A stretch of 32,009 nucleotides of DNA from Terriglobales bacterium (GTDB lineage Bacteria; Zixibacteria; MSB-5A5; RBG-16-43-9), in NCBI GenBank assembly GCA_035543035.1, contig DATKKH010000173.1:1-32009 (forward strand), read 5' to 3'. Below are positions 41 to 24,752 of this stretch, piece after piece. The stretch's first letter is position 1, and every line of letters starts with the position of its first letter. The position numbers and the translations under genes were made by a program. The notes below the pieces were generated by a model. That model saw nothing but the letters and a program-made list of their open reading frames with translations, did not search any database and had not been told where the DNA came from.

Positions 41-70
41 TGTAGGGGCGTATGGCAATACGCCCTTACA
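41..70. repeat. GTAG-headed REP-like palindrome (class GGGGCGTATTG)
   Basis: tgtaggggcgtatggcaatacgcccttaca forms a 13-bp stem with one mismatch and a 4-nt loop. It is 27/30 identical to the copy at 8975-9004. Confidence 0.8.
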
Positions 71-123
71 TTTTCGATTAATCGAATCCCACAGTTTGTC
101 AGAGATTTTTTGTTCAAATTTAG

Positions 124-151
124 TTGACAAAAGGACGAAAAAGAATAACTT
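124..151 (+). promoter_or_regulatory. Candidate sigma-70 promoter (TTGACA-16 nt-TAACTT)
   Basis: TTGACA at 124-129 and TAACTT at 146-151, upstream of the DUF502 gene. The -10 is weak, so this is only a motif match. Confidence 0.3.
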
Positions 152-191
152 AAAAAGAATTGTATGGGAGGTAACTTTTTCCTGACATAAA

Positions 192-782
192 ATGGTAAAA
201 GCTCTGAGAAATTACTTTCTTTCAGGCGTTCTGATCATCGTCCCCCTGATTATTACTTACCTGGTGTTACGTTTCTTGTTTTTAGGCCTGGATGGACTAC
301 TATCTCCTCTGGTTAATAAACTAATAGGTTTCAATTTTCCGGGGACCGGGCTTTTAGCCACTCTAATTCTCATTTTCTTAGCAGGTCTTTTTGCCTCCAG
401 CCTTATATTTTCGCGTTTGGTCTCTTACGGAGAATCTCTTTTCAATAAAATCCCGGTTGTTCGCACCGTTTATGGTCCTGCTAAACAATTAGTGGAAAGT
501 CTCACAGTTGCTGATAAAAAGGGGTTCCAGCAGGTGGTCTTGATTCAGTTCCCCCGTAAGGATATTTATACTCTGGGTTTTGTAGCCAAGAGAGTTCAGA
601 TGAACGGCCAGACGCTTCTGGTAGTTTTTGTCCCTTCGACTCCTACCCCTTTTACCGGCTGGACGCTCCTGTTTAAAGAGGAAGAAGTCACCTTATTAGA
701 CATAACAGTGGAAAAAGGGATAGAGTTTTTTGTGTCCGGCGGGATAGCTTCCCCGGATAAGTTCAACTTCAAGGAAAAATAA
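192..782 (+). CDS. DUF502 family membrane protein
   Basis: 196-aa ORF. It has two N-terminal TM helices (VLIIVPLIITYLVLRF..., GLLATLILIFLAGLFASS), then the soluble beta-rich tail typical of DUF502. ATG start. Confidence 0.75.
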   Translation: MVKALRNYFLSGVLIIVPLIITYLVLRFLFLGLDGLLSPLVNKLIGFNFPGTGLLATLILIFLAGLFASSLIFSRLVSYGESLFNKIPVVRTVYGPAKQLVESLTVADKKGFQQVVLIQFPRKDIYTLGFVAKRVQMNGQTLLVVFVPSTPTPFTGWTLLFKEEEVTLLDITVEKGIEFFVSGGIASPDKFNFKEK

Positions 783-791
783 AATCGGGAA

Positions 792-1967
792 ATGCTGAAG
801 CAGACTGTTACTACAGTAACATCGATTAAAACAGCAGCTCTGTCCGCGATCTGGACTTTTCCCTCGGTCTTATTGTCAGCCTTAGTAGTCGGCTGGGCAG
901 CTGAGGCAGCTCAATTTTTATTCTCCCAGGGTTTAGCCTTAGCTATTTTAGCCTGGCTGCAGACTTTGCCCGAATTCGCAGTAGAGGCGGTGATTGCCTG
1001 GGAAGCAGGAACTGATCCACAAAAAGTCCATCTGGTGACGGCCAATTTCACCGGTTCCTTGCGTCTTTTAGTAGGTCTGGGCTGGCCTATGATCTATTTC
1101 ACCACGGTTTTCTTCAGAAAAAGAAAGCCCGGGGAGAAAAAACTCTTAAATATAAAGTTAGACGGTGAGCATGCGGTTGAAATCCTTGGGCTTCTACCAC
1201 CCATCCTATATTTTGTTGTCATAGTGATAAAAGGAACCCTTTCCCTTTTTGATTCAGTAGTGCTCTTCTTGATGTATGTAGGTTATCTTTATATCTTAAG
1301 AAAAATCCCTCCACAAGATCAAGAAAAGACAGAAGATTTAGACAGGGTTCCGAGATGGATCTTGAAACAACAGCCTGTCAGAAGGAATCTCTCCATAGCT
1401 TTTCTTTTTGTCTTTGGCGGGATCTGGCTCTATTTAGTAGCAGAGCCATTCCTGCACAGCATGTTAGCTTTAGCCACTCTATTGGGAGTGTCTCAATTCG
1501 TTTTCATCCAGTGGGTTTCCCCTTTTCTGTCTGAATTTCCAGAAAAAGTTACTGCTTTTAACTGGGCAAGGACTGTGAAGAAAGCGCCTATGGCTTTGAT
1601 GAATATGATCTCCTCCAATATCAACCAGTGGACTGTGCTGGTGGCGATGATCCCGATTGTCTATTCTATAAGCTCAGGTAAAGTTTCAGTCATTCATTTC
1701 GATTCACATCAGAAGGTGGAGATATTTTTAACCATTGCCCAATCAGCTTTAGGAATGATCCTTTTAGCCAATATGGAATTCCGCTGGTATGAGGCACTGG
1801 GCCTTTTCGGCTTGTGGTTTACCCAGTTCGTCATTCCTTCTTTGAGAGAGGAGATAACCTGGGTTTATCTTTTCTGGCTTTATGTGGAGCTGATTTTGGC
1901 CTTTATTGGAAAAAGGAAACTTTCAGTTTTTAAGGAGTTCAGAGAGTTGATAAGGAAACATTGGTAA
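792..1967 (+). CDS. Polytopic membrane protein, CaCA (Na+/Ca2+ or cation/H+ exchanger)-like
   Basis: 391-aa ORF starting 10 nt after the DUF502 stop. It has many TM helices and two alpha-repeat-like motifs (LQTLPEFAVEAVIA and SPFLSEFPEKVTA) resembling the GSSLPE repeats of CaCA exchangers. The family call is tentative. Confidence 0.55.
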   Translation: MLKQTVTTVTSIKTAALSAIWTFPSVLLSALVVGWAAEAAQFLFSQGLALAILAWLQTLPEFAVEAVIAWEAGTDPQKVHLVTANFTGSLRLLVGLGWPMIYFTTVFFRKRKPGEKKLLNIKLDGEHAVEILGLLPPILYFVVIVIKGTLSLFDSVVLFLMYVGYLYILRKIPPQDQEKTEDLDRVPRWILKQQPVRRNLSIAFLFVFGGIWLYLVAEPFLHSMLALATLLGVSQFVFIQWVSPFLSEFPEKVTAFNWARTVKKAPMALMNMISSNINQWTVLVAMIPIVYSISSGKVSVIHFDSHQKVEIFLTIAQSALGMILLANMEFRWYEALGLFGLWFTQFVIPSLREEITWVYLFWLYVELILAFIGKRKLSVFKEFRELIRKHW

Positions 1968-1968
1968 A

Positions 1969-2008
1969 ACCTCACTTTATCTCTCACCTGCGAGGAGAGG
2001 GAGATAAT
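1969..2008. repeat. CCTCAC...CTCTC-loop-GAGAGG hairpin repeat (diverged copy)
   Basis: cctcactttatctctcacctgcgaggagagggagataa. It is related to copies at 14781-14813, 24721-24752 and 26727-26759. Confidence 0.55.
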
Positions 2009-2066
2009 TGAGTCTACAGTTGCTCGATTTATCGAGTGGCTTCGAAAGTGAAAGAGAGGGAAAACT

Positions 2067-3968: not shown

Positions 3969-6539
3969 TTATCTCATATTCCTCAATTTCTGCAGGACGT
4001 CATTGACTGTGGCATCATTAGGATGGTCCTGCATCCATCTCTCCAGAATTTTTTCCGACTGGCTGTATTTCTTGTTCATAATATACAGGTCGGAAAGAGC
4101 CCGGAAACTGATGTCATTGTCCGGGCTTATCTGATAAGCCTGATAAAAAGTATTCTCTGCATCCTGAATTCTTCTCTGCCCCAGGTAAAAAAGACCCAAG
4201 TACTGAAGATACAGAAGCTGGGGATTTGACTCGTATAGCTTTTTAAGATGCTCCTCAGCATTTTTCAGCAGAGCATCAGCATCTTGGGTTTTTCCCTCTT
4301 GTCTATACAGGTCAGCTAAAATCGCATAAGTGCGGTAATAATCCGAATATATCTGAATAGATTTTTTCAATTCAGCTTCATCTTTTAATGTATCTCCTTG
4401 ATTTAAATATACATTACCCAGTTCGATAAACATCTCCGGGTAGGAAATCAGCATACCTATTGCGTTTTCATCCTTGTAGACGTTCATATCATTCAGACCC
4501 CGGTACCTGTAGACCTCCCATAGGAGTTTATGGAACAAGTCCAGATCATACATGAACTTTCCTTCCTCTGGCACAAGTTTCAGCGCAAAACCTGCTTTTT
4601 TTAAATGATTATCCAGATTTAACCTTCCATCCGGCGGAACAGTAGAAGAAAAAACTATGGGATACTTCCACTGGTTCGTCAGGATTATATTCTCGATCAT
4701 CAGGTCCTGGACCCGGATAAGTTTTTTGTTTTTCTCGTCATAGTAACTGAAAAGATAATGGTTGGTTCCTCTCAAAGGGTCATAATACGTATCCCGGGGG
4801 AGGGAAATGACGGTTCCGTCCGGTCGTTTTCTGTCCACGCTCCATCTTATCTGGTCGTCGGTTAAACTGATAGGCACATTCCATTTGTTTTTAAGCTCCA
4901 GGATGTACCAGTCCGTATTCAGCAGGCTCAAATTAATCACCCGCACGTCGGTCCTGAATTTTTCCACCTGCTGGATATACCATAAGGGAAAAGTGTCATT
5001 ATCGCCATTGGTGAAAAGGATAGCGTCCCGGTCACAAGAGGTAAGGATATTATAAGCATAATCGTTCGGAATATAATCGCCTCGCCGGTTGTCGGGAGAA
5101 TGCAGACCGCGATTCAAAGGCATTAAAGGGGCTAACAGAAAAATAGCGGAAATTCCGAAGACTAAACTTCTGCTTCCCAATTTGCCTAACTTGGTAGAAG
5201 CTTCACCCAAATAGGCTATAAGCCAGGAGATGCCCAATCCCATCAATAAGGCAAAAAAAGTAAATGCCGGAGTGTAGAAATAATCTCTGTCCCTGACCTC
5301 TAATCGCTCCAACTCTCCGCTCAGAGGGTTGGTTTTGGTCCCATCTCCAAAATTAAGATAAAATAACAGCCCGATCGAGGAAATCAAAACCAGAAAAAGG
5401 AGCATCCAGCCGATGCCTTTGACTCTCCGGATCGATTCCAATACTCCTAATAATCCCAAAAGCACCGGGATAAACCATAAGCTCTTGTCCAGATACTGCT
5501 CCCTGAAAAATCCCCAGAAACCCATCCGCTCATGGGTTTCAAACTGGTTTTTCCAGCTTGCCCGGCGGGTGAACATCCGGTCGACCATCGAAACCTGGCC
5601 GTATTGCTTACGCTCCAGAAAATATTTGAAGCTCTTCCAGTCCCGGGGGTCGTTTTCATCGATGGCCGGGTCCAAAGATGACCGGATTGGGATGTATAAC
5701 TGCACTGTATAGCCTATGGCAGCAAAGGCTATTAAGGAAAAGATAAAATTCCAGCTTCTGGAACCGGGATTTAATTGCCAGAAAATAAAACTCAGGACTA
5801 AGGCGATTGCGAGTGAAACCAAGAACGGCACCAGGGTAAACATCACCAGGGATAAAACTATCCCGGCAGCCCAGAAACGGATATCTTTTAATTTGGATTT
5901 ATCAGTCAGAATTACCAGGAGGAAAACGGCTGGCATTATCAGATAAACAGTCATATGAATGCCAATCGATATCATCCCAAGGAAGGCGATCATGACTAAA
6001 TACCGGTCTGCTTTTGGCTCCCCTTTTCTCTCCCACCAGAGAAGGGCTAAATAGGCGATCAGAACCATCAATAGCATCGCTGCACCATAGACTTCTGCCT
6101 CAACCGAGTTGGACCAGTAGGTAGAGGAGAAACCTAAAAACAAACTACCAGAAACGCCTCCTACATAAGAGGCTATCCTAGTCCATCCTGAAGATTCCCT
6201 TTCTTTGAGAATGTGCCCCATTGTCCGCACGATAAATAAATAAGATAGCCAGACTGTTATGCTCGAAAATAAAACCGAGATGAAATTAACCCGCGGGGCA
6301 ATGGTCGAGAATAATGGTAGAAGGGTAAATATCCTGCCGATTAGTACAAATAAAGGTGTCCCAGGTGGATGAGGAATTCCCAAGATATAGGAACAGGCAA
6401 TAAACTCACCGCAGTCCCAGAAGGAAACTGTGGGCGCCATACAGTAAAGATAAACTAGAAAAACGAACAAAAATACGAAGACGGACAACCAGACATTTAT
6501 CGGGTCTTTTTTATACCAGCGGACGATGCCTGAAAACAT
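3969..6539 (-). CDS. DUF2723 (glycosyltransferase family 117 / TMEM260-like) membrane protein with C-terminal TPR repeats
   Basis: The motif WDCGEFIACSYILGIPHPPGTPLF is the DUF2723 hallmark. There are about 10 TM helices and a TPR-like C-terminus. The ORF extends to 6575, but the ATG at 6539 is preceded by GGAGGtaaa, so M13 is the likelier start. Confidence 0.85.
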   Translation of the reverse strand: MFSGIVRWYKKDPINVWLSVFVFLFVFLVYLYCMAPTVSFWDCGEFIACSYILGIPHPPGTPLFVLIGRIFTLLPLFSTIAPRVNFISVLFSSITVWLSYLFIVRTMGHILKERESSGWTRIASYVGGVSGSLFLGFSSTYWSNSVEAEVYGAAMLLMVLIAYLALLWWERKGEPKADRYLVMIAFLGMISIGIHMTVYLIMPAVFLLVILTDKSKLKDIRFWAAGIVLSLVMFTLVPFLVSLAIALVLSFIFWQLNPGSRSWNFIFSLIAFAAIGYTVQLYIPIRSSLDPAIDENDPRDWKSFKYFLERKQYGQVSMVDRMFTRRASWKNQFETHERMGFWGFFREQYLDKSLWFIPVLLGLLGVLESIRRVKGIGWMLLFLVLISSIGLLFYLNFGDGTKTNPLSGELERLEVRDRDYFYTPAFTFFALLMGLGISWLIAYLGEASTKLGKLGSRSLVFGISAIFLLAPLMPLNRGLHSPDNRRGDYIPNDYAYNILTSCDRDAILFTNGDNDTFPLWYIQQVEKFRTDVRVINLSLLNTDWYILELKNKWNVPISLTDDQIRWSVDRKRPDGTVISLPRDTYYDPLRGTNHYLFSYYDEKNKKLIRVQDLMIENIILTNQWKYPIVFSSTVPPDGRLNLDNHLKKAGFALKLVPEEGKFMYDLDLFHKLLWEVYRYRGLNDMNVYKDENAIGMLISYPEMFIELGNVYLNQGDTLKDEAELKKSIQIYSDYYRTYAILADLYRQEGKTQDADALLKNAEEHLKKLYESNPQLLYLQYLGLFYLGQRRIQDAENTFYQAYQISPDNDISFRALSDLYIMNKKYSQSEKILERWMQDHPNDATVNDVLQKLRNMR

Positions 6540-8876: not shown

Positions 8877-9004
8877 GTAGGGATAGCCCTTGTGGCTGTC
8901 CGCCATTTCTTAATCAGTTTTCGGACAGGGACAAGCCCTGTCCCTACATAAAGCCGTTGTTTCATTTCTATTTGTGTAGGGGTGTATTGCAATACGCCCC
9001 TACA
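8877..9004. repeat. REP cluster: inverted pair (8877-8901 +, 8923-8947 -) plus palindromic REP (8975-9004)
   Basis: gtagggatagcccttgtggctgtcc matches the reverse complement gtagggacagggcttgtccctgtcc (same head and loop, compensatory stem). The third element is tgtaggggtgtattgcaatacgcccctaca. Confidence 0.85.
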
Positions 9005-12401: not shown

Positions 12402-12413
12402 CTTGTTTCCGAC

Positions 12414-12631
12414 CCAGGTTGGGGGTAACCTGGATCTACCTGTTCTATGTCATTGCGAGTTCCCGTATGGGGCGAATCAATCCGCTTATCGTGGACAGAT
12501 TGCTTCGTCGTCAAATGACCACCTCGCAATGACACCTATCTTCCACGTTGTGTCAGGAGCTACTCCTCTATGAGCCGTAAAGCTTTTATCGGCTGACACG
12601 ATGGTCGCCTGTCAGGTCTAGGACCTGACAG
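12414..12631. repeat. Composite structured spacer: hairpin, 12-bp terminal inverted repeat unit, multi-stem region, 23-nt palindrome
   Basis: A ccaggtt/aacctgg hairpin lies at 12414-12433. tgtcattgcgag (12448-12459) and ctcgcaatgaca (12523-12534) flank 63 bp. gtgtca/tgacac (12550-12599) encloses two small hairpins. ctgtcaggtc-tag-gacctgacag lies at 12609-12631. Confidence 0.7.
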
Positions 12632-13650: not shown

Positions 13651-13733
13651 GTAGGGACAGAACAGTGTTCTGTCCATCAATGGCGACCCCGAAAGGGTCG
13701 CACTACGAAAGGGCGAGGTAACCTCGCCCCTAC
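13651..13733. repeat. Three tandem GTAG-headed REP hairpins
   Basis: 13651-13675 (+) is gtagggacagaacagtgttctgtcc. 13683-13706 (-) is gtagtgcgaccctttcggggtcgc. 13711-13733 (-) is gtaggggcgaggttacctcgccc. Confidence 0.85.
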
Positions 13734-14920: not shown

Positions 14921-15078
14921 ACGCATGCCATGCGTCTCTACGAACTTGATGGAAATAAAAAAATTGGAGGTAGGGGGCGCCCCTGCAGTTGGGCGGAATT
15001 GAACTCCGCCCCTACACGATTCTTATAGGAATTCATATTCCTAAAAGACCGAAGGACAGAACGATGTTCTGTCCCTAC
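14921..15078. repeat. Four GTAG-headed REP hairpins
   Basis: 14921-14941 (-) is gtagagacgcatggcatgcgt. 14970-14984 (+) is gtagggggcgcccct. 14991-15015 (-) is gtaggggcggagttcaattccgccc. 15054-15078 (-) is gtagggacagaacatcgttctgtcc, 23/25 identical to 13651-13675. Confidence 0.85.
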
Positions 15079-17633: not shown

Positions 17634-17664
17634 GTTGGCGCAAATTTAGAAAATGCCAACTTTT
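17634..17664 (+). terminator. Weak hairpin plus TTTT after the GxxExxY gene (possible attenuator)
   Basis: The gttggc/gccaac stem is 6 bp with a 15-nt loop and is followed by tttt. It is too weak to be a confident terminator. Confidence 0.3.
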
Positions 17665-17696
17665 CACCCTATACCTAAAAGGAGGTGAAGCAGAGG

Positions 17697-17744
17697 ATGC
17701 CCGCAAAGAAGAAAGCAAAGGCTAAAGGGAAGAAGAAAAAATAA
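17697..17744 (+). CDS. Candidate 15-aa lysine-rich micropeptide MPAKKKAKAKGKKKK
   Basis: The ATG is preceded by AAAAGGAGGTGA (GGAGG at 17681-17685, 11-nt spacing). The stop is TAA, and a strong intrinsic terminator follows 27 nt downstream. It is too short for codon statistics. Confidence 0.35.
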   Translation: MPAKKKAKAKGKKKK

Positions 17745-17770
17745 GAGCCTTTAGGTTTTTTGCGCCCAAA

Positions 17771-17800
17771 GAGTCTCCCCAAAGGGGGGACTCTTTTTTT
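17771..17800 (+). terminator. Rho-independent terminator
   Basis: gagtctcccc-aaa-ggggggactc forms a 10-bp stem with one G-U pair. It is followed by ttttttt. Confidence 0.85.
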
Positions 17801-17837
17801 ATCAATAACCTATAGGTTGTCAGCGGCAGGGAAGTTC

Positions 17838-17926
17838 GTAGTGCGACTCTTTCAGGGTGCTTGAGATGTAGAGACGAATTGCATGCGTCTTTACTTAACA
17901 ACGTCGGGCACAGGTCCCGACTCTAC
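17838..17926. repeat. Three GTAG-headed REP hairpins
   Basis: 17838-17860 (+) is gtagtgcgactctttcagggtgc, a degenerate copy of the 13683-13706 class. 17868-17894 (+) is gtagagacgaattgcatgcgtctttac. 17903-17926 (-) is gtagagtcgggacctgtgcccgac. Confidence 0.8.
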
Positions 17927-18023
17927 AAATATTCCTTCAACTTTGCTTCCCCTGCTAGGGAAAGAAGATACTTTTCTATTGACTAAATCAAAAATTATTT
18001 TATCCTATAATCCTAAATAAAGT

Positions 18024-19580
18024 ATGTCCAGGAGAAACAGAAAAAAAATCTGGCTGGTTTTACTCGTGATAGCGGTCTTTGCTCTTTTTCTCTTGTACCA
18101 GTATCAGCAGAGCAAGAGGGTAGAGATAACGATACTTTACTGGAACGATTTCCACGCCTCGGTCTATCCCCATCCCGAGTCTGAAAAGGAAGGAGCGCCT
18201 CTGGTTTCGGGCAGCGCTAATTTTGCAGGATACGTTCTATCCTTGGAGATGGAGGCTATGTATGGACATGTGTATCCGATCCTTGTCTGCGCCGGGGATG
18301 AGTTCACCGGTGACCCGCTTTCTTCTCTGACCCAAGGGAAAGCCCAGATCGAAATTCTGAATCTTCTGCATCCCTCTGTGTTTGAACTGGGGAACCATGA
18401 GTTCGACTACGGAATAGATAATCTCAAAAAAGATTTAGAAGTTGCGGATTTTCCGGTTGTCTGCGCGAATCTCATAGACAAAGAAAAGGGAAGACCTCTG
18501 GTCAAACCATACATTATCATCGACGACGGTAAACTTAGGATTGCCTTTATTGGTTTGATTACAGAAAGTCTTCAGAAGATTCTCAAGGAAGGCGGGAAAC
18601 TTCAGGTTGTGGATGCGGAGAGTACTCTGACATACTACATGAATGTTTTGAGTGATAGCACGGATATTCAGGTTCTGGTCAGCCATATGGGAGTTCAGGC
18701 AGATAAGAGCATTGCAAAAAAGGTCCAAGGATTAGAGCTGATTATCGGAGGTCACAGCCACTCCACGATTTTCAAACCCGCTAAAGTGGGGAATACTTTG
18801 ATCTGCCAGGCCGGGTCGAATGGAAAATATATAGGGAAATTGGACCTTTTCTTAGATTCTAAAGGAAAAGTCCTGGGCTATCAGAATAAACTGGTGGAAA
18901 CATTTGTGGATCAGGTTCAGCCGGATACTCTGGTGAAAAATAAGATCGATGAGTTAGAGAAAAATCTCGATATAAATTTAGACGAAAAAATTGGGGAGCT
19001 TGAAACACCCTGGATCAGAAATGATGAGCGGGAGTCGAATGTCGGCAATTTCCTGACTGATGCGATGAGAAATTACGCTAAAGCTGACGTGGCTTTCACA
19101 AATTCGGGCGGCATCAGGAAAAATCTGAAAGCTGGTCCGATCACGGTGCGAGATATCTGGGAAATAGCACCTTTTTCTGATCGATTGGTTCTAATCGATT
19201 TGACAGGCGGACAGCTTCTGAATATTCTGGAGAAAAACTGCCGAAAAGATATTGACCTGCTTCAAGTCTCGGGGGTTAAATATTCTTTTACTCCGGAAAG
19301 ACCGTATGGCGAAAGGGTAATCGATGTTCTGGTCAATAACGAGAAGATACTGCCGTATAAGACATATAAAGCGGTCATAAATGATTATATCCTGGCGCAG
19401 TCAAAGGATTTTTTAGGAATTCCCAAGCAGGATCTGAAATATAAGATTTTAACGGGTTTAGATAGAGACGTTTTCATAAAAGAAGTTAAGCAAAGGATAA
19501 CAATAAATTCTCAGGTCGAGGGAAGAATAACGGAATTGAAAAAGGTTGAGAAAGAGGTTGGAGAAAAGACCGACAAATAA
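18024..19580 (+). CDS. Bifunctional metallophosphatase / 5'-nucleotidase (UshA-like), membrane anchored
   Basis: 518 aa with an N-terminal TM. The metallophosphoesterase motifs are present (NDFH, GDEF, GNHEFDYG, GGHSH), followed by a 5'-nucleotidase C-terminal domain pattern. Confidence 0.88.
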   Translation: MSRRNRKKIWLVLLVIAVFALFLLYQYQQSKRVEITILYWNDFHASVYPHPESEKEGAPLVSGSANFAGYVLSLEMEAMYGHVYPILVCAGDEFTGDPLSSLTQGKAQIEILNLLHPSVFELGNHEFDYGIDNLKKDLEVADFPVVCANLIDKEKGRPLVKPYIIIDDGKLRIAFIGLITESLQKILKEGGKLQVVDAESTLTYYMNVLSDSTDIQVLVSHMGVQADKSIAKKVQGLELIIGGHSHSTIFKPAKVGNTLICQAGSNGKYIGKLDLFLDSKGKVLGYQNKLVETFVDQVQPDTLVKNKIDELEKNLDINLDEKIGELETPWIRNDERESNVGNFLTDAMRNYAKADVAFTNSGGIRKNLKAGPITVRDIWEIAPFSDRLVLIDLTGGQLLNILEKNCRKDIDLLQVSGVKYSFTPERPYGERVIDVLVNNEKILPYKTYKAVINDYILAQSKDFLGIPKQDLKYKILTGLDRDVFIKEVKQRITINSQVEGRITELKKVEKEVGEKTDK

Positions 19581-19998
19581 GAATACGATCAATGCAGAGA
19601 AACTTGTGCCCAAGAGGAAAATTCCCTATATCTGGTTAACTCTGGTCTATGCTGTCATAATCTTGATTGCCTCCTCCATCCCGGACCTTAAAACCCCTCA
19701 ATTAGGCTTTGAAAATCAGGATAAACTTTACCATTTTATAGAATACAGTATTTTTTCTGTTCTTTTATTTTTTACTTTGCTAAATTCTGGTAAAACTTTC
19801 CTCAGAAAGAACGTCCTTCTCATCTCCCTTTTAATAGGGGCATCTTTCGGAATCCTGGATGAACTTCACCAGAAATTCATCCCCGGAAGGCAAGCCGATA
19901 TTCTGGATTTCACGGCTGATTTTGTGGGCGTGGCTTTAATTCAAGTTTGTTTCTGGATTTATCACCGTCGAAAATCAAGGGTTCATTCAAACAAGTAA
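19546..19998 (+). CDS. VanZ family membrane protein
   Basis: 150 aa. The VanZ-like motif is LDELHQKFIPGRQADILDFTADFVGVAL, and there are 4 TM helices. The TTG start overlaps the upstream gene by 35 nt, so the start is uncertain (an in-frame GTG at 19606 is possible). Confidence 0.78.
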   Translation: MRKRLEKRPTNKNTINAEKLVPKRKIPYIWLTLVYAVIILIASSIPDLKTPQLGFENQDKLYHFIEYSIFSVLLFFTLLNSGKTFLRKNVLLISLLIGASFGILDELHQKFIPGRQADILDFTADFVGVALIQVCFWIYHRRKSRVHSNK

Positions 19999-20017
19999 CC
20001 GAGCCTTTAGGGCTCGG
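19999..20017 (+). terminator. Hairpin directly after the VanZ stop (terminator-like, no U-run)
   Basis: ccgagcc-tttag-ggctcgg forms a 7-bp stem. Confidence 0.3.
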
Positions 20018-20039
20018 AGCATGTTGATCCAAGATTTTC

Positions 20040-20134
20040 GTAGGGCAAACCTTCAGGTTTGCGTTTCTTCTCGTTGAATTCAAAACCCGATGTCTGACCC
20101 TGCTTTTGTTCGCAAGCCTGAAGCCTTGCCCTTC
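20040..20134. repeat. BIME-like inverted pair of REP hairpins
   Basis: 20040-20063 (+) is gtagggcaaaccttcaggtttgcg. 20111-20134 (-) is gaagggcaaggcttcaggcttgcg. They are separated by 47 bp. Confidence 0.8.
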
Positions 20135-20151
20135 TGGTAGGTCTTTTTGTA

Positions 20152-20180
20152 TTGACTTTGAATGGTTAAGATATTATCAT
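20152..20180 (+). promoter_or_regulatory. Candidate sigma-70 promoter for hisS (TTGACT-17 nt-TATCAT)
   Basis: The -35 is at 20152-20157 and the -10 at 20175-20180. AGGA lies 7 nt before the ATG at 20205. Confidence 0.4.
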
Positions 20181-20204
20181 TTTTGAACGTTGAAAGGACG
20201 ACTG

Positions 20205-21461
20205 ATGAAATTTACTGCTCTTCAGGGGACAAAAGATTTATTGCCGGAGGATGCTTCTAAATGGAGATATATAGAGGAAAAAATCAGGGGGATTTTTTCT
20301 CTTTACAACTATAAAGAAATGAGGACTCCGGTTTTCGAGCAGACCGAGCTTTTCAAAAGGAGCATTGGGGATGACACGGATATCGTCCAGAAGGAGATGT
20401 ATACCTTTCAGGACCAGGGCAAAAGGAGCCTTACTTTAAGGCCTGAAGGGACAGCCTCGATTGTTCGGGCTTTTATCGAGCACAATCTGGGAGAAAAATC
20501 TCCACTGGTGAAGCTTTTTTATTTTGGCCAGATGTTCAGGCAAGAAAGGCCTCAAAAGGGAAGACTTCGGGAGTTCAACCAATATGGGGTGGAAGTCATC
20601 GGGTCCTTGGATCCTCTGGTAGATGCGGAGGTTATTGAGCTGGGTGTCAGGATACCCCAGGCTTTAGGACTGGATGGTCAGAAGCTTTTCCTAAACAGCA
20701 TCGGATGTAAAGACTGTCGGCCGGCCCATAGAGATGCTTTTAATAAATTCGTCAAGGATAAAATAAATAAATTCTGCCAGGATTGCCAGTTGAGGCTTCT
20801 CCGAAATCCCTTAAGAATTTTCGACTGCAAAAATGAGCAATGTATAAACGCTCTTAAGGATGCTCCTATGATCCTGGATTATCTTGATGAAAAGTGCAAA
20901 GAGCATTTCAAAAAAGTCAGGGAATATATAGACCAGATGGGGATTGAATATAATCTGGACGGCAGATTAGTCCGGGGTCTGGATTATTACACCAGAACGA
21001 CTTTTGAGATAAAATCAGAATCCTTAGGTGCGCAGGATACTCTGATCGGTGGTGGAAGATATGACCTTCTAGTCTCTGAGTTAGGTGGCAAGGATATCCC
21101 AGCCATAGGTTTTGCTGCAGGAATCGAGAGATTGTTCCTCGTCCTAGAAATGCAAAGGAAATTTCCTCCTGAAGATGACAGGCTGGATATCTTCATAGCT
21201 CCATTAGGTGAAAAGGAAAAAAGTCTGGGGTTAAAGCTACTCAGAGACTTGAGAGAAAAAGGTCTTAGATGTGATCTCGATTTTCTGGGAAGGAGCCTGA
21301 AATCTCAGTTGAAAGAAGCTGACAGGCAAAAGGCTAAAAAAGTCTTGATTATCGGAGAAGACGAGCTGAAAAAAGGAAAAGGGACTCTAAGGGATATGGA
21401 GACTAAGGAGCAGAAGGAGATTGAATTCGAAAAATTGGTTCAAGAGTTGATTCGGGGATGA
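20205..21461 (+). CDS. hisS: Histidine--tRNA ligase
   Basis: It has the class II HisRS motifs (GTKDLLPED, RTPVFEQTELF, LRPEGTASIVR, GGGRYD) and a C-terminal anticodon-binding domain. The ATG at 20205 is preferred over the TTG at 20190 because of RBS and promoter placement. Confidence 0.95.
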   Translation: MKFTALQGTKDLLPEDASKWRYIEEKIRGIFSLYNYKEMRTPVFEQTELFKRSIGDDTDIVQKEMYTFQDQGKRSLTLRPEGTASIVRAFIEHNLGEKSPLVKLFYFGQMFRQERPQKGRLREFNQYGVEVIGSLDPLVDAEVIELGVRIPQALGLDGQKLFLNSIGCKDCRPAHRDAFNKFVKDKINKFCQDCQLRLLRNPLRIFDCKNEQCINALKDAPMILDYLDEKCKEHFKKVREYIDQMGIEYNLDGRLVRGLDYYTRTTFEIKSESLGAQDTLIGGGRYDLLVSELGGKDIPAIGFAAGIERLFLVLEMQRKFPPEDDRLDIFIAPLGEKEKSLGLKLLRDLREKGLRCDLDFLGRSLKSQLKEADRQKAKKVLIIGEDELKKGKGTLRDMETKEQKEIEFEKLVQELIRG

Positions 21462-21569
21462 GTTATGATTTTGGCAGGTCATAGAACTGACAAAAAAGCA
21501 CGCTATCAGGAGTGTTTTCTGACACAACTTAGCATGACATTATGAATAAATGATAGAACTGGAGTCAAT

Positions 21570-23393
21570 TTGATAAAATTTGAAAATCTAAAACGTACGC
21601 ACACTTGCGGGGAGTTAAAAAAATCGCATTCGGGGCAGAAGGTGAGACTAAACGGGTGGGTGAATAGTTACCGCAATCATGGTGGTTTGATTTTCATTGA
21701 TTTGAGGGACAGGTATGGTATTACCCAGGTTGTCTTCAAGCCGGATTTGGTGGATAAAGATACTATGGAACTTTCAGCGAGTTTGAGGACTGAGTTTGTA
21801 GTCGGAGTTGAAGGAACTGTTTCAGAAAGACCATCCGGTATGCAAAATAAAGAAATGGCTACTGGCGAAATTGAGGTCATTGTCGAGAAACTGGCAGTTT
21901 TCAATGAATCTAAGACTACTCCTTTTGAGATCGTCGAAGAAACAAATGCGAGTGAGGAGTTAAAACTAAAATATCGCTACCTGGATTTGCGGCGTCCTCC
22001 TTTACAGCGAAATATCAGGATGAGGCACAGGATAACCAAAGCTGTCAGAGATTATCTGGACTCTGTTGGTTTTTATGAGATCGAAACTCCTCTTCTTATC
22101 CGCTCTACTCCTGAAGGAGCAAGGGATTTCATCGTTCCCTCCAGGGTGAATACGGGGAAGTTCTACGCGCTTCCGCAATCTCCCCAACTTTTGAAACAAA
22201 TCCTGATGATCTCCGGGTTCGACAAATATTTCCAGATAGCTCACTGTCTCCGGGACGAAGACTTGCGAGCTGACCGCCAGCCTGAGCATTCCCAGATAGA
22301 TATGGAGATGGCATTTGTCACAGAAGATGACGTTTTCTCGGTGATCGAAGGGATGATGAGCTATGTTTTCAAGAATGTTCTGAATTTGGAATTGAAGACT
22401 CCGTTTCCGAGGTTGAAGTATCAGGACGCAATGGAAAGATATGGATCAGATAAGCCAGATATCAGATTCGGTTTGGAAATTATCGACTTGTCCGACCAAG
22501 TCAAAGGTTCAGCTTTCAAGGTGTTTTCTGAGACCCTTGGTTCAGGCGGTAAAGTCAAGGGAATAAATTTCAAAAATGGGGCATTCTTAAGCAGAAAGCA
22601 GATCGATGAGCTAGAGGAAAGTGCGAAGAAATCAGGTGCCAAAGGGCTGGTCTGGATGGCCAAGTTAAAAGAAGGTCTGCGCTCGCCGATTAGCAAATAT
22701 ATCAGCCAGGCAGAGATCGATTCTATTTCCGGGAGATTAGATTTAAAGGAAGGGGATATAATCTTCATAATTGCTGGACAAGAGGATATGGCGTTGTCAA
22801 ATTTGGGTAAATTAAGAGTCGAAATTGCACGTAGATATAATATAATCGACAAGAGCAGATGGGGGTTTCTATGGATAACGGAATTCCCTCTTTTCGAATA
22901 TAATCCTGAGGAGCAAAAGATTCAGGCGATGCACAACATAGTTACCCAGCCTCTGGAGGAGGAGATTTTTAAATTAGACCAAGGTTTGAAAACGGACTTG
23001 CCGATTGATAATCCAGAGCACCCCTGGAGAAACATAAGGGGACGGCAGTACGATCTGGTCCTGAACGGGACCGAAATAGCCTCAGGTGGGATCAGGAATC
23101 ATAAAAAGGATCTTCAGATGAAGATCCTGAACATCTTAGGCTGGGATGAGAAAAGAGCAGAAAACGCTTTTGGATTTTTGCTCAATGCTCTGGAATACGG
23201 CGCGCCGCCGCACGGTGGAATTGCGCCGGGATTAGATCGGATAGTCGCTTTGATCTGCGGGTCTGATTCAATCAGAGACGTAATCGCATTCCCCAAGACC
23301 ACTGCTGCTCAATCTCTGATGGATGGGGCACCGTCCGAAGTCGACGAAGTACAACTCAGAGAACTGAGAATTAAGATAGTGAAAGATGAGTAA
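21570..23393 (+). CDS. aspS: Aspartate--tRNA ligase
   Basis: 607 aa with an N-terminal OB fold. Class IIb motifs are present (FYALPQSPQLLKQ, CLRDEDLRADRQPEHSQIDMEM, GGIRNH, PPHGGIAPGLDR). The TTG start has GGAG 5 nt upstream. Confidence 0.95.
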   Translation: MIKFENLKRTHTCGELKKSHSGQKVRLNGWVNSYRNHGGLIFIDLRDRYGITQVVFKPDLVDKDTMELSASLRTEFVVGVEGTVSERPSGMQNKEMATGEIEVIVEKLAVFNESKTTPFEIVEETNASEELKLKYRYLDLRRPPLQRNIRMRHRITKAVRDYLDSVGFYEIETPLLIRSTPEGARDFIVPSRVNTGKFYALPQSPQLLKQILMISGFDKYFQIAHCLRDEDLRADRQPEHSQIDMEMAFVTEDDVFSVIEGMMSYVFKNVLNLELKTPFPRLKYQDAMERYGSDKPDIRFGLEIIDLSDQVKGSAFKVFSETLGSGGKVKGINFKNGAFLSRKQIDELEESAKKSGAKGLVWMAKLKEGLRSPISKYISQAEIDSISGRLDLKEGDIIFIIAGQEDMALSNLGKLRVEIARRYNIIDKSRWGFLWITEFPLFEYNPEEQKIQAMHNIVTQPLEEEIFKLDQGLKTDLPIDNPEHPWRNIRGRQYDLVLNGTEIASGGIRNHKKDLQMKILNILGWDEKRAENAFGFLLNALEYGAPPHGGIAPGLDRIVALICGSDSIRDVIAFPKTTAAQSLMDGAPSEVDEVQLRELRIKIVKDE

Positions 23394-23430
23394 AAAGCTT
23401 ATAAGCTCAAGCGCTCAAAAGAAAGTCAAT

Positions 23431-23456
23431 GGTGGAACAGGCATCTTACCTGTTCG
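23431..23456 (+). repeat. GGTGGAACAGGCATCTT(A/G)CCTGTTCG hairpin repeat, copy 1
   Basis: ggtggaacaggcatcttacctgttcg lies 38 nt after the aspS stop. Copies 2 and 3 lie at 24581-24606 and 26764-26788. Confidence 0.85.
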
Positions 23457-23483
23457 GGATTTTATGAAAGGGGAGAGAATTTC

Positions 23484-23535
23484 GTAGCGCGAGGCTGAAA
23501 GCCTCGCAATGTGACCCTAAAAGGGTCGCGCTACG
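23484..23535. repeat. Back-to-back REP pair sharing a GTAGCGCGA head
   Basis: The (+) element is gtagcgcgaggctgaaagcctcgc and the (-) element is gtagcgcgacccttttagggtc. The two heads are mutually complementary (cgtagcgc / gcgctacg). Confidence 0.85.
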
Positions 23536-23565
23536 TCAGATAGAAGGAGGCAGTCGAGAAAGAGC

Positions 23566-24531
23566 TTGAAGAAAAAATGGGTAAAAAAAATTAATCTGGG
23601 GGATGTGGACCAGAGGATTTTGTTCGGGCAGGGGGGTTCATTTTTGAGGATTATCGAAAGCCAGTTCGATTCCAAGATCATCGCGCGTGGGGATAGCGTA
23701 ATAATCCAGGGAACAGAAAAAGAGATAAACCAATTGGAGGCCTTGTTTGATTCCCTGATAACTTACCTTAAGAAAAATAGGGAACTGCCAGAGAAGTATT
23801 TGCTTTATGCTATCTCCTTGGCAAAAGAGGAGGAGGAAGGCTCCCCTGAGAATCTTCAGGTATCTTCATTGGTGACTTCGATTTTTACCAAGGAGGTCAT
23901 CCAGCCAAGGACAGTTGGGCAGAGGGAATATGTTCAAGCAATGGAGGAATATGATATCGTGTTCTCCATAGGTCCCGCAGGTACAGGCAAGACCTATTTA
24001 GCAGTAGCAAAAGCAGTCGGGGCTTTGAAAGGCAAGGAGGTCAGCCGTCTGGTGTTAGTGCGACCTGCAGTAGAAGCAGGTGAAAGTCTCGGATTTCTGC
24101 CAGGAGACATCAGAGCAAAAGTCGACCCCTACTTGCGCCCGGTCTATGATGCCCTGCATGATATGCTCTCGGCCGAAAAGATAAGGAGATTGATGGAACT
24201 GGGAATCATCGAGATAGTTCCTCTGGCATTTATGCGAGGCAGAACTTTAAACCACGCATACGTCATACTGGACGAAGCACAAAACACCACTGTAGCCCAG
24301 ATGAAGATGTTTTTGACCCGGTTGGGGGTCGGGTCCAGGGCGGTGATAACCGGCGATATAACCCAGATCGATCTGACGGACAAAAAAGCCTCAGGCCTGG
24401 TTCAGATTCAAAAGATTCTGGCCGGTATACAAGGGATTGAGTTCGTCTACCTTACTGAAAAAGACGTGGTCAGACATAGACTGGTACAGGATATCATCAA
24501 AGCGTATGAAAGGTTTGAGTCAGAACAGTAA
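23566..24531 (+). CDS. phoH: PhoH-like ATPase (YbeZ)
   Basis: 321 aa with Walker A GPAGTGKTYLAVA, Walker B VILDEAQN, and the ITGDITQIDL motif. The TTG start is uncertain. Confidence 0.92.
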   Translation: MKKKWVKKINLGDVDQRILFGQGGSFLRIIESQFDSKIIARGDSVIIQGTEKEINQLEALFDSLITYLKKNRELPEKYLLYAISLAKEEEEGSPENLQVSSLVTSIFTKEVIQPRTVGQREYVQAMEEYDIVFSIGPAGTGKTYLAVAKAVGALKGKEVSRLVLVRPAVEAGESLGFLPGDIRAKVDPYLRPVYDALHDMLSAEKIRRLMELGIIEIVPLAFMRGRTLNHAYVILDEAQNTTVAQMKMFLTRLGVGSRAVITGDITQIDLTDKKASGLVQIQKILAGIQGIEFVYLTEKDVVRHRLVQDIIKAYERFESEQ

Positions 24532-24580
24532 AAGCAGACTTTAGAGTTCAAATGCTCAAAAGATCAAAAGCTCAAAAAAT

Positions 24581-24606
24581 GGTGGAACCGGCATCTTGCC
24601 TGTTCG
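24581..24606 (+). repeat. GGTGGAAC(C)GGCATCTTGCCTGTTCG hairpin repeat, copy 2
   Basis: ggtggaaccggcatcttgcctgttcg lies 50 nt after the phoH stop. It is preceded by the same GCTCAAAAG-type lead as copy 1. Confidence 0.85.
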
Positions 24607-24615
24607 TCTGTGCTC

Positions 24616-24672
24616 AGAGAGGATGTTATCATCCTCTCTAAGAATCGTCTTGTGGATGATAACATCCACAAG
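24616..24672. repeat. Twin perfect hairpins with a shared GGATG-N4-CATCC core in opposite orientation
   Basis: agagaggatg-ttat-catcctctct lies at 24616-24639 and cttgtggatg-ataa-catccacaag at 24649-24672. Each has a 10-bp perfect stem, and the 14-nt cores are reverse complements. Confidence 0.85.
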
Positions 24673-24711
24673 GAGGGATGGTGCGGTAATCGAGCGTTCA
24701 AAGCCGCTTTA

Positions 24712-24752
24712 GTAGTGCGACCTCACCCAGACCCTCTCCTACAAGGAGAGGG
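24712..24752. repeat. REP head fragment fused to a CTCACCC...CCCTCTCC hairpin repeat
   Basis: The sequence is gtagtgcgacctcacccagaccctctcctacaaggagaggg. It has an 8-bp stem ccctctcc/ggagaggg. Confidence 0.8.

What the first reader, a model, noticed from the sequence alone, without database searches (positions are those of the whole stretch)
41..24722. Unusually diverse superfamily of GTAG-headed REP-like hairpins (about 19 copies, about 10 stem classes) with no RAYT in the window
Seen in the sequence: elements of the form GTAG(G/T/C/A)G-stem-loop-stem occur at these positions.
- 41
- 8877, 8923, 8975
- 13651, 13683, 13711
- 14921, 14970, 14991, 15054
- 17838, 17868, 17903
- 20040, 20111
- 23484, 23513
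- 24712

The head is conserved while the stems differ completely between classes (GGGGCGTATTG, GGGACAGAAC, GGGA(C/T)AG, TGCGACCC, (G)CGAGG, AGACG, AGTCGGGAC, GGCAAACC, GGGCGGAG, GGGGCGCCCC). Within a class, copies are 85-95% identical. All copies are intergenic.

Established knowledge: REPs processed by REP-associated tyrosine transposases (RAYTs, Y1 HUH enzymes) have a conserved 5' GTAG tetranucleotide next to an imperfect palindrome. As I recall, genomes usually carry only one or a few classes.

Inference: either many RAYT-class systems have acted in this lineage, or one enzyme reads mainly the GTAG head plus the hairpin shape.
Basis: partly seen in the sequence, partly recalled or inferred. 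Interest (0 to 1): 0.65.

Follow-up and report, generated by a model that had tools for sequence, protein, structure and literature searches.

The report
REP hairpin repeats in a Zixibacteria genome
The GTAG-headed hairpins are real repetitive extragenic palindromes (REPs) of an already described kind, spread by small RAYT transposase genes that close relatives of this uncultured wetland bacterium carry, so the finding is mostly ordinary.

Summary
The window has 20 clean GT[AG]G-headed hairpins plus 4 decayed ones. All lie in the 14% of the window that is non-coding. Shuffled sequence gives fewer than one.

The window comes from a Zixibacteria genome in a wetland metagenome. The elements match a published type: REPs of the RAYT/TnpA_REP subclass 2.4 (RAYT Group 4). 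That type has single-foot and "double-foot" GTAG...CTAC hairpins and puts REPs in frame inside the transposase gene.

No RAYT lies in the window. The closest relatives carry one at a conserved chromosomal site, with the window's class A REP twice upstream and once inside the gene.

In 80 metagenomic RAYT loci, 76 carry an internal REP, with 56 different stems. In 31 of 41 testable loci the flanking REPs match the internal one. This favours "each class has its own RAYT" over "one enzyme reads GTAG plus shape". Cognate RAYTs were found for classes A, C1 and D only.

Orthologous spacers in three relatives hold different REP sets, which shows gain and loss.

One result is less expected: class A occurs letter for letter in 57 species-level genomes labelled as at least 15 phyla.

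Verdict: a new member of a known kind, of modest interest.

The parts
42..69 (+). Class E REP, GTAGGGGCGTATggcaATACGCCCTTAC; near double-foot form, with the 3' foot decayed to TTAC
8877..8901 (+). REP GTAG-GGATAGCC-cttgt-GGCTGTCC (A-like stem, 1 mismatch); left half of a heads-out pair with 8923-8947
8923..8947 (-). Class A2 REP GTAG-GGACAGGG-cttgt-CCCTGTCC; identical copies occur in Zixibacteria loci L010 and L058
8976..9003 (.). Class E double-foot REP GTAGGGGTGTATTGCAATACGCCCCTAC (GTAG on both strands), 2 nt after the stop codon of the DUF4175 gene
12412..12439 (-).
13651..13675 (+). Class A REP GTAG-GGACAGAAC-agt-GTTCTGTCC (perfect stem); absent from the orthologous spacer of L119
13683..13706 (-). 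Class B REP GTAGt-GCGACCC-tttcg-GGGTCGC; an orthologous decayed copy is present in L119
13711..13733 (-). Class C1 REP GTAG-GGGCGAGG-tta-CCTCGCCC; the same stem lies inside RAYT genes of L157, L170 and L187
14919..14941 (-). Class D REP GTAG-AGACGCAT-ggc-ATGCGTTT; the same stem lies inside the RAYT gene of L158
14970..14988 (+). Doubtful element: GTAG followed by the loop-less palindrome GGGGCGCCCC
14991..15015 (-). Class F REP GTAG-GGGCGGAGT-tca-ATTCCGCCC
15054..15078 (-). Class A REP GTAG-GGACAGAAC-atc-GTTCTGTCC (perfect stem), 11 nt upstream of the sigma-54 activator gene
17838..17860 (+). Decayed class B REP GTAGTGCGACTCTTTCAGGGTGC; further decayed orthologous copies in L119 and L120
17868..17894 (+). 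Class D REP GTAG-AGACGAAT-tgc-ATGCGTCT-TTAC; orthologous copies in L119 and L120
17903..17926 (-). Class G REP GTAGa-GTCGGG-acctgtg-CCCGAC; the relatives have GTAGCGTCGGGCtttatGCCCGACG at the same site
20040..20062 (+). Class H REP GTAGg-GCAAACC-ttca-GGTTTGC; an orthologous copy is in L120
20111..20131 (-). Decayed, tag-less inverted partner of the class H REP (CGCAAGCCtgaaGCCTTGCCC)
23432..23454 (+).
23484..23507 (+). Class C2 REP GTAGc-GCGAGGCT-gaa-AGCCTCGC; left half of a heads-out pair
23511..23534 (-). Class B REP GTAGc-GCGACCCT-ttt-AGGGTCAC; right half of the pair. The same B+C2 pair occurs in L117 (order swapped) and in L120
24582..24604 (+). Class I REP GTGG-AACCGGCA-tct-TGCCTGTT, 50 nt after the PhoH stop codon
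24712..24766 (+). Class B REP (GTAGTGCGACC...GGGTCCCGAC) interrupted in its loop by a 34-nt CTCACCC/CCCTCTCC...GGAGAGGG hairpin element
26765..26787 (+). Class I REP GTGG-AACAGGCA-tct-TGCCTGTT, 51 nt after the stop codon of the gene I call ybeY by position (its orthologues in L117, L119 and L120 hit Pfam YbeY)
28968..28996 (+). Hairpin AGGACAGACAttctTGTCTGTCCT followed by TTTTTT after the DUF362 gene. The orthologous copies in L117, L119 and L120 carry a GTAG head; here the head is GAGA. I read it as a REP now serving as an intrinsic terminator

Best explanation
The elements are repetitive extragenic palindromes (REPs) of the GT[AG]G-tagged type. They are single-strand hairpin substrates of REP-associated tyrosine transposases (RAYT, also called TnpA_REP: Y1 HUH enzymes, Pfam PF01797), specifically of subclass 2.4, which equals RAYT Group 4. 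The host is a Zixibacteria bacterium from a wetland.

**Proposed mechanism (inferred from studied RAYTs, not shown here).**
- The enzyme binds the folded hairpin on single-stranded DNA.
- It needs the 5' GTAG for cleavage.
- It reads the first loop base and the intact stem.
- It cuts at a nearby dinucleotide and transfers the strand, which seeds copies in non-coding spacers.

**How the many stem classes arise (part shown, part inferred).**
- Each stem class belongs to its own RAYT lineage, which carries one copy of its REP in frame inside its own gene and further copies beside it.
- The window therefore shows the layered products of several such systems.
- Class A has perfect stems, is present or absent between close relatives, and has a cognate RAYT in those relatives. 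I read it as recently active.
- Several other classes (decayed B, H, the split B copy) look like ageing relics.
- Some copies have been taken over by the host, for example as a terminator hairpin after the DUF362 gene.
For: **The hairpins are non-random.**
- GTAG is the most enriched tetramer next to hairpins: 13 against 0.87 in shuffles. The enrichment repeats in independently chosen related loci.
- All 20 clean elements are intergenic.

**The host and its RAYT.**
- AspRS is 89% identical to Zixibacteria RBG_16_43_9 and 86% to the complete Zixibacteria chromosome OY970208.1. Gene order is shared.
- Both relatives carry a PF01797 RAYT gene at the same chromosomal site (FtsK-LolA-MiaB-...-RAYT-radical SAM-SLT).
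- That RAYT has class A REPs twice upstream and once in frame inside the gene, just after the HUH motif.

**Co-occurrence of class A and RAYT genes.**
- 10 of 113 8-kb blocks that hold class A also encode a RAYT.
- In 6 of those 10 the REP lies inside the RAYT ORF.

**RAYT genes carry their own REP class.**
- Of 80 metagenomic RAYT loci, 76 have an internal GT[AG]G hairpin, at a median of +256 nt.
- 56 distinct stems occur among them.
- The flanking class equals the internal class in 31 of 41 loci that have both.
- The nearest RAYT core neighbour shares the internal REP class in 94 of 103 cases, against 0.32 expected by chance.
- Window stems A, C1 and D occur as RAYT-internal REPs.

**Sign of enzyme recognition.** The first loop base of class A is A in all 66 single-foot copies, and on both strands of all 57 double-foot copies. 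This parallels the loop-base requirement measured for a perfect-palindrome REP (PMC8266576).

**Gain and loss.** Orthologous spacers of the window, L117, L119 and L120 hold different REP sets.

**Match to published description.** Published accounts of subclass 2.4 describe double-foot REPs, in-frame REPs inside tnpA and a patchy phylum distribution (PMC6006769).
Against: - The window's own genome was not available, so no RAYT is shown in the very same organism. The evidence comes from relatives at 86-93% AspRS identity.
- Cognate RAYTs were found for classes A, C1 and D only. For class E only the stem was found, beside one RAYT, and a relative of class I was found. None were found for B, C2, F, G, H or J in the 80 metagenomic RAYT loci and the 113 class-A-selected blocks (about a dozen more RAYT ORFs) that were screened for stems.
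- No precise insertion junction was recovered, because the related spacers are too diverged to align base by base.
- No biochemical activity has been tested for any subclass 2.4 enzyme in the papers I read.
- The RAYT core analysis included 30 residues before the WQ motif, and the sequences are phylogenetically related, so the 94/103 figure overstates independence.
Confidence: 0.8

Rival explanations
1. One promiscuous RAYT, for example the conserved-locus class A enzyme, reads only the GTAG head, the first loop base and the hairpin geometry. It mobilises all stem classes in this lineage, and the stems drift freely by compensatory change.
For: - Only one RAYT locus was seen in the relatives.
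- For the Stenotrophomonas perfect-palindrome REP, block changes in the stem had only modest effects on cleavage, and changes in the three bottom pairs even improved it (PMC8266576).
- Paired REPs differ only at the top of the stem: GCGAGGC against GCGACCC, and GGACAGCC against GGACAGGG.
- No cognate RAYT was found for 7 of about 11 classes.
Against: - Across 80 RAYT loci the flanking REPs match the gene's internal REP in 31 of 41 cases, and RAYT clades track REP class.
- RAYTs with the C1 and D stems do exist.
- Loops differ between classes in their first base: A in class A, T in C1, B and I, G in D.
- I could not count RAYT paralogues in any whole Zixibacteria genome, so "only one RAYT" is not established.
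Confidence: 0.15
2. The hairpins are host regulatory elements, such as transcription terminators, mRNA 3' stabilisers or protein binding sites. They are kept by selection and are not products of a transposase.
For: - The three class I copies sit 38-51 nt after stop codons, all in the direction of transcription.
- The hairpin at 28968-28996 has a T-run and is conserved at the same site in four genomes.
- Such roles are documented for REPs (PMC3733652).
Against: - Only one element has a T-run.
- Elements occur in both orientations and upstream of genes (12412, 15054).
- Orthologous spacers differ in content.
- Identical units occur inside RAYT genes, and in genomes labelled as at least 15 phyla with unrelated flanks.
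- Host use is compatible with a transposase origin, and secondary to it.
Confidence: 0.05
3. The pattern is a chance or compositional effect, or the remains of another kind of mobile element such as a MITE, IS200/IS605 ends or integron attC sites.
For: A few weak GT[AG]G hairpins inside genes (2969, 3652, 6559, 28158) look like chance.
Against: - Shuffles give 0.15-0.87 against 10-13 observed.
- All 20 clean copies are intergenic (P about 1e-17).
- There are no long terminal inverted repeats, no transposase ORF beside them, and the units are only 23-29 nt.
- Rfam has no match.
Confidence: 0.01

Closest known systems
REPs and REPtrons of TnpA_REP subclass 2.4 (Quentin et al. 2018, PMC6006769), equal to RAYT Group 4 (Bertels et al. 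2017, PMC5581495)
   Same: - GT[AG]G foot on a long perfect hairpin whose stem starts with G-C pairs.
- "Double-foot" GTAG...CTAC forms.
[quoted passage not shown]
- REPs flanking the gene.
- Patchy distribution over many phyla.
   Different: - The host phylum (Zixibacteria) is not named in the passages I read; those name Cyanobacteria, Bacteroidetes, Chlorobia and Caldilineae.
- Bertels reports only modest copy numbers for Group 4: flanking 16-mers occur about 14 times per replicon. Here the density is 0.2-0.6 per kb.
- In this clade the RAYT sits at a conserved chromosomal site.
GTAG-tagged REP superfamily (Di Nocera et al. 2013, PMC3733652)
   Same: - A conserved terminal GTAG with unrelated stems across 24 families.
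- Several families in one genome, each with its own REPtron.
- Heads-out and tails-out dimers and clusters.
- REPs inside genes.
   Different: - The window's stems could not be matched to the 24 published consensus sequences, because their figure is not held as text.
- That survey did not cover candidate phyla known only from metagenomes.
Stenotrophomonas maltophilia REPs (SMAGs) and their RAYTs (Nunvar et al. 2010, PMC2817692; Corneloup et al. 2021, PMC8266576)
   Same: - The same geometry: GTAG plus an 8-bp perfect stem plus a 3-nt loop.
- Six classes coexist per genome.
- Biochemistry shows that GTAG is needed for cleavage and that the first loop base and an intact stem are needed for recognition.
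   Different: - A different RAYT clade: Group 3 in Corneloup 2021, and Bertels' Group 3 maps mostly to subclass 2.5 in Quentin 2018.
- It is confined to one proteobacterial lineage.
- Quentin 2018 calls REPs inside tnpA_REP a feature unique to subclass 2.4.
E. coli REP/BIME and RayT (PDB 4ER8); Pseudomonas REPINs
   Same: - GTAG-tagged extragenic palindromes.
- Clustering in alternating orientation.
- A single domesticated RAYT at a fixed locus.
   Different: - E. coli REPs are imperfect, bulged palindromes of one family.
- REPINs are near-identical inverted pairs. Here the paired units differ in the upper stem, and many classes are mixed within one cluster.

Membership tests
GTAG-tagged REP superfamily | A 20-40 nt palindromic unit with a GT[AG]G tag at one end | tested here: met
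   There are 20 units of 23-29 nt with 6-9 bp stems and a GTAG head (17) or a GTGG head (3). GTAG is the top-enriched flanking tetramer.
GTAG-tagged REP superfamily | Extragenic location | tested here: met
   All 20 clean units lie in the 14% of the window that is intergenic.
GTAG-tagged REP superfamily | High copy number, dispersed over the genome | tested here: inconclusive
   - The whole genome is not available.
- Density is 20 per 32 kb here, and 5-12 per 22 kb in three related loci chosen through AspRS.
- The same classes recur in other Zixibacteria and Ignavibacteria blocks.
- Extrapolating to hundreds of copies or more per genome is inference.
GTAG-tagged REP superfamily | Units associated as dimers or mixed clusters (BIME-like) | tested here: met
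   Clusters lie at 8877-9003, 13651-13733, 14919-15078, 17838-17926 and 23484-23534, with heads-out pairs at 8877/8947 and 23484/23534.
REPtron of RAYT subclass 2.4 / Group 4 | A Y1 HUH RAYT gene (PF01797) in the genome | tested here: inconclusive
   - None in the window.
- Present at a conserved locus in the closest relatives, OY970208.1 and RBG_16_43_9, and in JGI and ENA contigs.
- The window's own genome could not be searched.
REPtron of RAYT subclass 2.4 / Group 4 | The RAYT gene is flanked by the same REP class that is dispersed in the genome | tested here: met
   - Class A: two copies upstream of the RAYT in L121 and in L203-L206.
- In general: 31 of 41 metagenomic RAYT loci.
- This is met for class A only in this lineage.
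REPtron of RAYT subclass 2.4 / Group 4 | [quoted passage not shown] | tested here: met
   - Class A encodes (K/W)(R/T)TE(Q/H)CSVPT right after MPNHIHGII in P0025 and P0044.
- 76 of 80 metagenomic RAYTs have such an insert.
REPtron of RAYT subclass 2.4 / Group 4 | Double-foot REPs (GT[AG]G...C[TC]AC) alongside canonical single-foot REPs | tested here: met
   - The window has a double-foot unit at 8976-9003 and a near double-foot unit at 42-69; the rest are single-foot.
- Class A elsewhere: 57 double-foot and 66 single-foot copies.
REPtron of RAYT subclass 2.4 / Group 4 | The enzyme binds and cleaves the single-stranded REP | not testable with these tools
   This needs purified protein and oligonucleotide assays.
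REPIN | Two near-identical inverted REPs with a spacer that form one long hairpin and replicate as a unit | tested here: not met
   Inverted pairs exist (8877/8947, 20040/20131, 23484/23534), but the two arms differ in the upper stem, and the pair order is swapped in L117.
Intrinsic terminator | A G+C-rich hairpin directly followed by a T-run | tested here: not met
   Only 28968-28996 has a T-run; the other elements do not.

The most novel reading that the evidence does not exclude
The class A REP and its RAYT form a promiscuous unit that crosses phylum boundaries. The in-frame copy of the hairpin inside the transposase gene acts as the heritable master copy, and it re-seeds a REP population in every new host.

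This would explain three observations:
- The same 25-29 nt sequence, including an invariant first loop base, is found in 57 species-level genomes labelled as at least 15 phyla (28-56% GC), while the RAYT proteins themselves are only 50-75% identical.
- Almost every RAYT of this subclass keeps a REP at the same point of its ORF.
- One genome can accumulate ten or more classes.
Probability: 0.25. Interest if true: 0.6.

Novelty: new member of a known kind. Interest (0 to 1): 0.32.

Why it matters
The result extends REP/RAYT systems to Zixibacteria and other candidate phyla known only from metagenomes. In these genomes non-coding spacers are crowded with mixed REP classes.

For annotation, such hairpins explain many short spurious ORFs and odd in-frame peptides such as VGTEQCSVPT.

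For REP biology, the internal REP makes each RAYT gene carry a label of its own substrate. Enzyme-substrate pairs can therefore be read directly from sequence for dozens of classes. This is a ready-made data set for studying how HUH enzymes change DNA specificity.

The cross-phylum identity of one class challenges the view that REP/RAYT systems are mainly inherited vertically. Horizontal movement of this subclass has, however, already been suggested.

Tried and rejected
- **Rfam at gathering thresholds on the whole window:** no match.
- **Full-text search for the class A and class E sequences:** only unrelated primer hits.
- **First exact-protein look-up (sigma-54 activator):** not on record.
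- **Phages or plasmids as vehicles:**
  - Class A occurs in only 1 of 2.9 million IMG/VR contigs.
  - The Zixibacteria RAYT has one weak match in the phage collection and five in the plasmid collection, at 32-39% identity.
  - No vehicle was identified.
- **Laying contigs of four metagenome runs on window 12300-27000, to find precise insertion or deletion junctions at REPs:**
  - The output was dominated by short contigs from other loci that share the repeats.
  - No clean junction was recovered.
- **The PDDEXK_3 (GxxExxY) gene at 17205-17630 as a possible partner:** rejected, because it is conserved at the same site in L119 and L120, with one also at the edge of L117, and it shows no link to REP classes.
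- **A third whole-database protein search with chimeric class peptides, to look for RAYTs of classes B, C2, E, F and G:** not run, because it would not change the verdict.

Full report
**1. The observation**

The window is 32,009 bp with 43.5% G+C. I re-read all 19 positions in the finding.

- Fifteen are clean hairpins with a GTAG directly 5' of the stem, or a CTAC 3' of it when the element is on the minus strand.
- Four are weak:
  - 14970 is a loop-less GC palindrome.
  - 17838 is a decayed copy.
  - 20111 is a tag-less decayed partner of 20040.
  - 24712 is a hairpin split by another nested hairpin element.
- A systematic scan for GT[AG]G followed by a stem of at least 6 bp found 20 intergenic elements.
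  - It added one GTAG hairpin at 12412-12439.

The pattern is not chance.

| Test | Observed | Shuffled |
|---|---|---|
| Perfect hairpins flanked by GTAG in the window (GTAG ranks first of 256 tetramers) | 13 | 0.87 |
| Same, stricter hairpin settings | 10 | 0.15 |
| Clean elements that are intergenic (14.0% of the window is intergenic) | 20 of 20 | P about 1e-17 |

**2. The organism**

- The window's genes are housekeeping genes.
- One window protein is found exactly on an ENA metagenome contig and a Logan contig.
- The run that holds 99% of the sampled words from window 13000-18000 is a wetland metagenome.
- AspRS is 93-90% identical to proteins on JGI metagenome contigs, 89% to Zixibacteria RBG_16_43_9, and 86% to the complete Zixibacteria chromosome OY970208.1.
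- Gene order around it is shared with three relatives, L117, L119 and L120.

The window is therefore from a Zixibacteria genome.

**3. The elements are not confined to the window**

- *Enrichment.* In L117, L119 and L120, which were chosen through AspRS and not through repeats, GTAG-flanked hairpins number 3, 7 and 5, against 0.05-0.15 in shuffles.
- *Turnover.* Orthologous spacers hold different REP sets.
  - The class A copy at 13651 is absent from L119, while the neighbouring class B and C1 copies are present there in decayed form.
  - The ORF296/sigma-54 spacer holds four REPs in the window, one A-like unit plus an unrelated GTAG hairpin in L119, and a different set in L120.
  - The heads-out B+C2 pair after AspRS is present in the window, sits in swapped order in L117, is reduced to B alone in L119, and lies in another spacer in L120.
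  - This is the pattern expected of elements that are gained and lost.
- *Recurrence.* Classes A2, B, C1, C2, D, E, F, G2 and I recur in other Zixibacteria and Ignavibacteria blocks.

**4. Link to a transposase**

I built an HMM from E. coli RayT and first hits.

- It finds RAYT-like ORFs in 10 of those 113 blocks. That is far more than expected for a gene present once or a few times per genome.
- In six of them the class A hairpin lies inside the RAYT ORF, in frame, right after the HUH motif. It encodes V(G/R)TE(Q/H)CSVPT.

A database search with one such protein gave 1,398 homologues, mostly Pfam PF01797 and often named "REP element-mobilizing transposase RayT". Nearly all of the best 120 carry a hairpin-encoded peptide at that point, of several kinds.

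Two of these proteins come from the window's closest relatives: P0025 on OY970208.1 and P0044 on RBG_16_43_9.

- Their gene sits at the same chromosomal site in both: FtsK-LolA-MiaB-...-RAYT-radical SAM-SLT.
- It has two class A REPs upstream on the coding strand and one inside on the opposite strand.
- P0044 is also encoded, letter for letter, on three ENA assemblies whose accession numbers are close to that of the assembly holding the window's contig.

**5. This is a described system**

- *Quentin et al. 2018* (PMC6006769) define TnpA_REP subclass 2.4. Its features are:
  - canonical long REPs whose stem starts with three G-C pairs;
  - "double-foot" REPs with 5' GT[AG]G and 3' C[TC]AC;
  - a patchy distribution over phyla.
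- They equate subclass 2.4 with RAYT Group 4 of *Bertels et al. 2017*, which is found in 17 bacterial classes.
- *Di Nocera et al. 2013* (PMC3733652) already defined the GTAG-tagged superfamily with 24 stem families. They describe several families per genome with repeat-specific REPtrons, dimers and clusters, and REPs inside genes.
- *Nunvar et al. 2010* list six REP classes coexisting in Stenotrophomonas genomes.

The window shows both REP forms: double-foot at 8976-9003, near double-foot at 42-69, and single-foot elsewhere.

**6. One enzyme or many?**

I fetched 80 RAYT loci of this subclass from metagenomes.

- 76 carry an internal GT[AG]G hairpin, at a median of +256 nt.
- There are 56 distinct stems among them.
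- 41 loci also have REPs within 700 bp. In 31 of these the flanking class equals the internal class.
- Among the 120 proteins, the nearest neighbour by core sequence shares the internal REP class in 94 of 103 cases, against 0.32 by chance. The caveat is that the sequences are related and the core includes part of helix C.

The window's stems were then compared with RAYT loci:

| Window class | Where the same stem was found |
|---|---|
| A | Internal in L126; flanking in L128 |
| C1 | Internal in L157, L170 and L187 |
| D | Internal in L158 |
| I | A relative is internal in L123 |
| E | The stem only, beside the RAYT of L197 |
| B, C2, F, G, H, J | No cognate found in this sample |

Published biochemistry on a perfect-palindrome REP shows that GTAG is needed for cleavage and that the first loop base and an intact stem are needed for recognition. 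Stem sequence matters less (PMC8266576). In line with this, the first loop base of class A is A in all 66 single-foot copies and on both strands of all 57 double-foot copies. The window's classes differ in that base.

I conclude that separate RAYT lineages for separate classes is the better-supported reading. A partly promiscuous enzyme is not excluded for the unmatched classes.

**7. The unexpected part**

- The 113 class A blocks come from 57 assemblies.
- The submitters label them as Zixibacteria, Ignavibacteria, Omnitrophota, Latescibacterota, Sumerlaeota, several CPR/Patescibacteria groups, Gammaproteobacteria, Deltaproteobacteria, Bacteroidetes, Acidobacteriota, Anaerolineae, Planctomycetia, Bacillota, Marinimicrobia, Sericytochromatia and others.
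- The flanks are unrelated, and G+C ranges from 28% to 56%.
- Double-foot copies dominate in Omnitrophota, CPR and Gammaproteobacteria. Single-foot copies, like those of the window, dominate in Zixibacteria, Ignavibacteria and Sumerlaeota.
- Some copies lie in frame inside long ORFs that are not RAYTs (L012/L063, L056, L115, L053).
- The RAYTs that carry class A are only about 50-75% identical to each other, while the REP is identical.
- Horizontal spread of subclass 2.4 has been proposed before, but I found no report of one REP sequence shared this widely. Binning errors in some MAGs cannot be excluded.
- Phages and plasmids do not appear to be the vehicle.

**8. Verdict**

- The finding is real and correctly identified as REP-like.
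- It belongs to a published kind and is not exceptional in principle.
- The absence of a RAYT from a 32-kb window is expected for a gene that the relatives show at one locus.
- What is new is the host lineage, the density and mixture of classes, and the cross-phylum identity of class A.
- The idea that the in-frame REP acts as a travelling master copy is my inference and is untested.

Noticed in passing
window 23432-23454, 24582-24604, 26765-26787: Three copies of AATGGTGG-AACAGGCA-tct-TGCCTGTT sit 38-51 nt after the stop codons of AspRS, PhoH and the ybeY-like gene. All point in the direction of transcription. A GTAG-headed relative (GTAGGGAACAGGCATGCCTGTTCCCTAC) lies inside the RAYT gene of L123.
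   Followed up: partly
window 14781-14845, 24722-24752, 26728-26758, 26799-26830: A second hairpin family has no GTAG head: CTCACCCTGA + CCCTCTCC-nnnn-GGAGAGGG. One copy is nested in the loop of a class B REP at 24712-24766. The family also occurs in the related loci and in Ignavibacteria blocks L066 and L073. Its mobilising enzyme is unknown.
   Followed up: partly
window 12449-12533: An 85-nt element is bounded by the inverted ends GTCATTGCGAG...CTCGCAATGAC. Copies are present in spacers of L117 and L120. Metagenome contigs pile up on it at 15-50x word depth across the four runs (23x in the window's own run X1, against about 7x for the surrounding DNA there). It is therefore a highly repeated MITE-like element.
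   Followed up: partly
window 28968-28996: A hairpin plus T-run follows the DUF362 gene. It is conserved at the same site in L117, L119 and L120, where it carries a GTAG head; the window has GAGA instead. It looks like a REP fixed as an intrinsic terminator.
   Followed up: partly
window 17697-17744 (terminator-like hairpin at 17768-17800): A tiny ORF with a strong ribosome-binding site (AGGAGGTGA) encodes the lysine-rich peptide MPAKKKAKAKGKKKK. It is followed by a hairpin plus T-run, and it is conserved with its terminator in L117, L119 and L120.
   Followed up: no
L119 9128-9843, L120 7284-9967, L117 7952-9985, against window 21462-21569: The HisRS-AspRS spacer is 108 bp in the window. In L119 and L120 it holds a HEPN/nucleotidyltransferase (toxin-antitoxin-like) pair, with an extra 652-aa ORF in L120. 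In L117 it holds a 677-aa TPR/DUF4145 gene. The site is a hot spot for gene insertion.
   Followed up: no
L121 10001-10567; L203-L208 (gene at 4001-4558, or 1567-2124 in L206): The Zixibacteria RAYT sits at the same chromosomal site in OY970208.1, RBG_16_43_9 and several metagenome contigs: after FtsK-LolA-MiaB and small ORFs, and before a radical SAM gene and SLT. This suggests vertical inheritance within this clade, despite the cross-phylum spread of its REP.
   Followed up: partly
L012 2714-2742 and L063 4152-4180; L056 1213-1241 and 2647-2675; L115 about 6161-6189; L053 865-889: Class A REPs lie in frame (VGTE(Q/H)CSVPT) deep inside long ORFs that are not RAYTs, in Omnitrophica, Sericytochromatia and Saccharibacteria MAGs. 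One giant ORF holds two copies.
   Followed up: no
L031 5064-5654 and 6302-6883: A Parcubacteria contig carries two RAYT genes in tandem. Each has a different internal double-foot REP (GTAGGGAACGGTTTAAAACCGTTCCCTAC and GTAGAGACGCGGTTAACCGCGTCTCTAC), and a class A double-foot REP lies 900 bp upstream.
   Followed up: no
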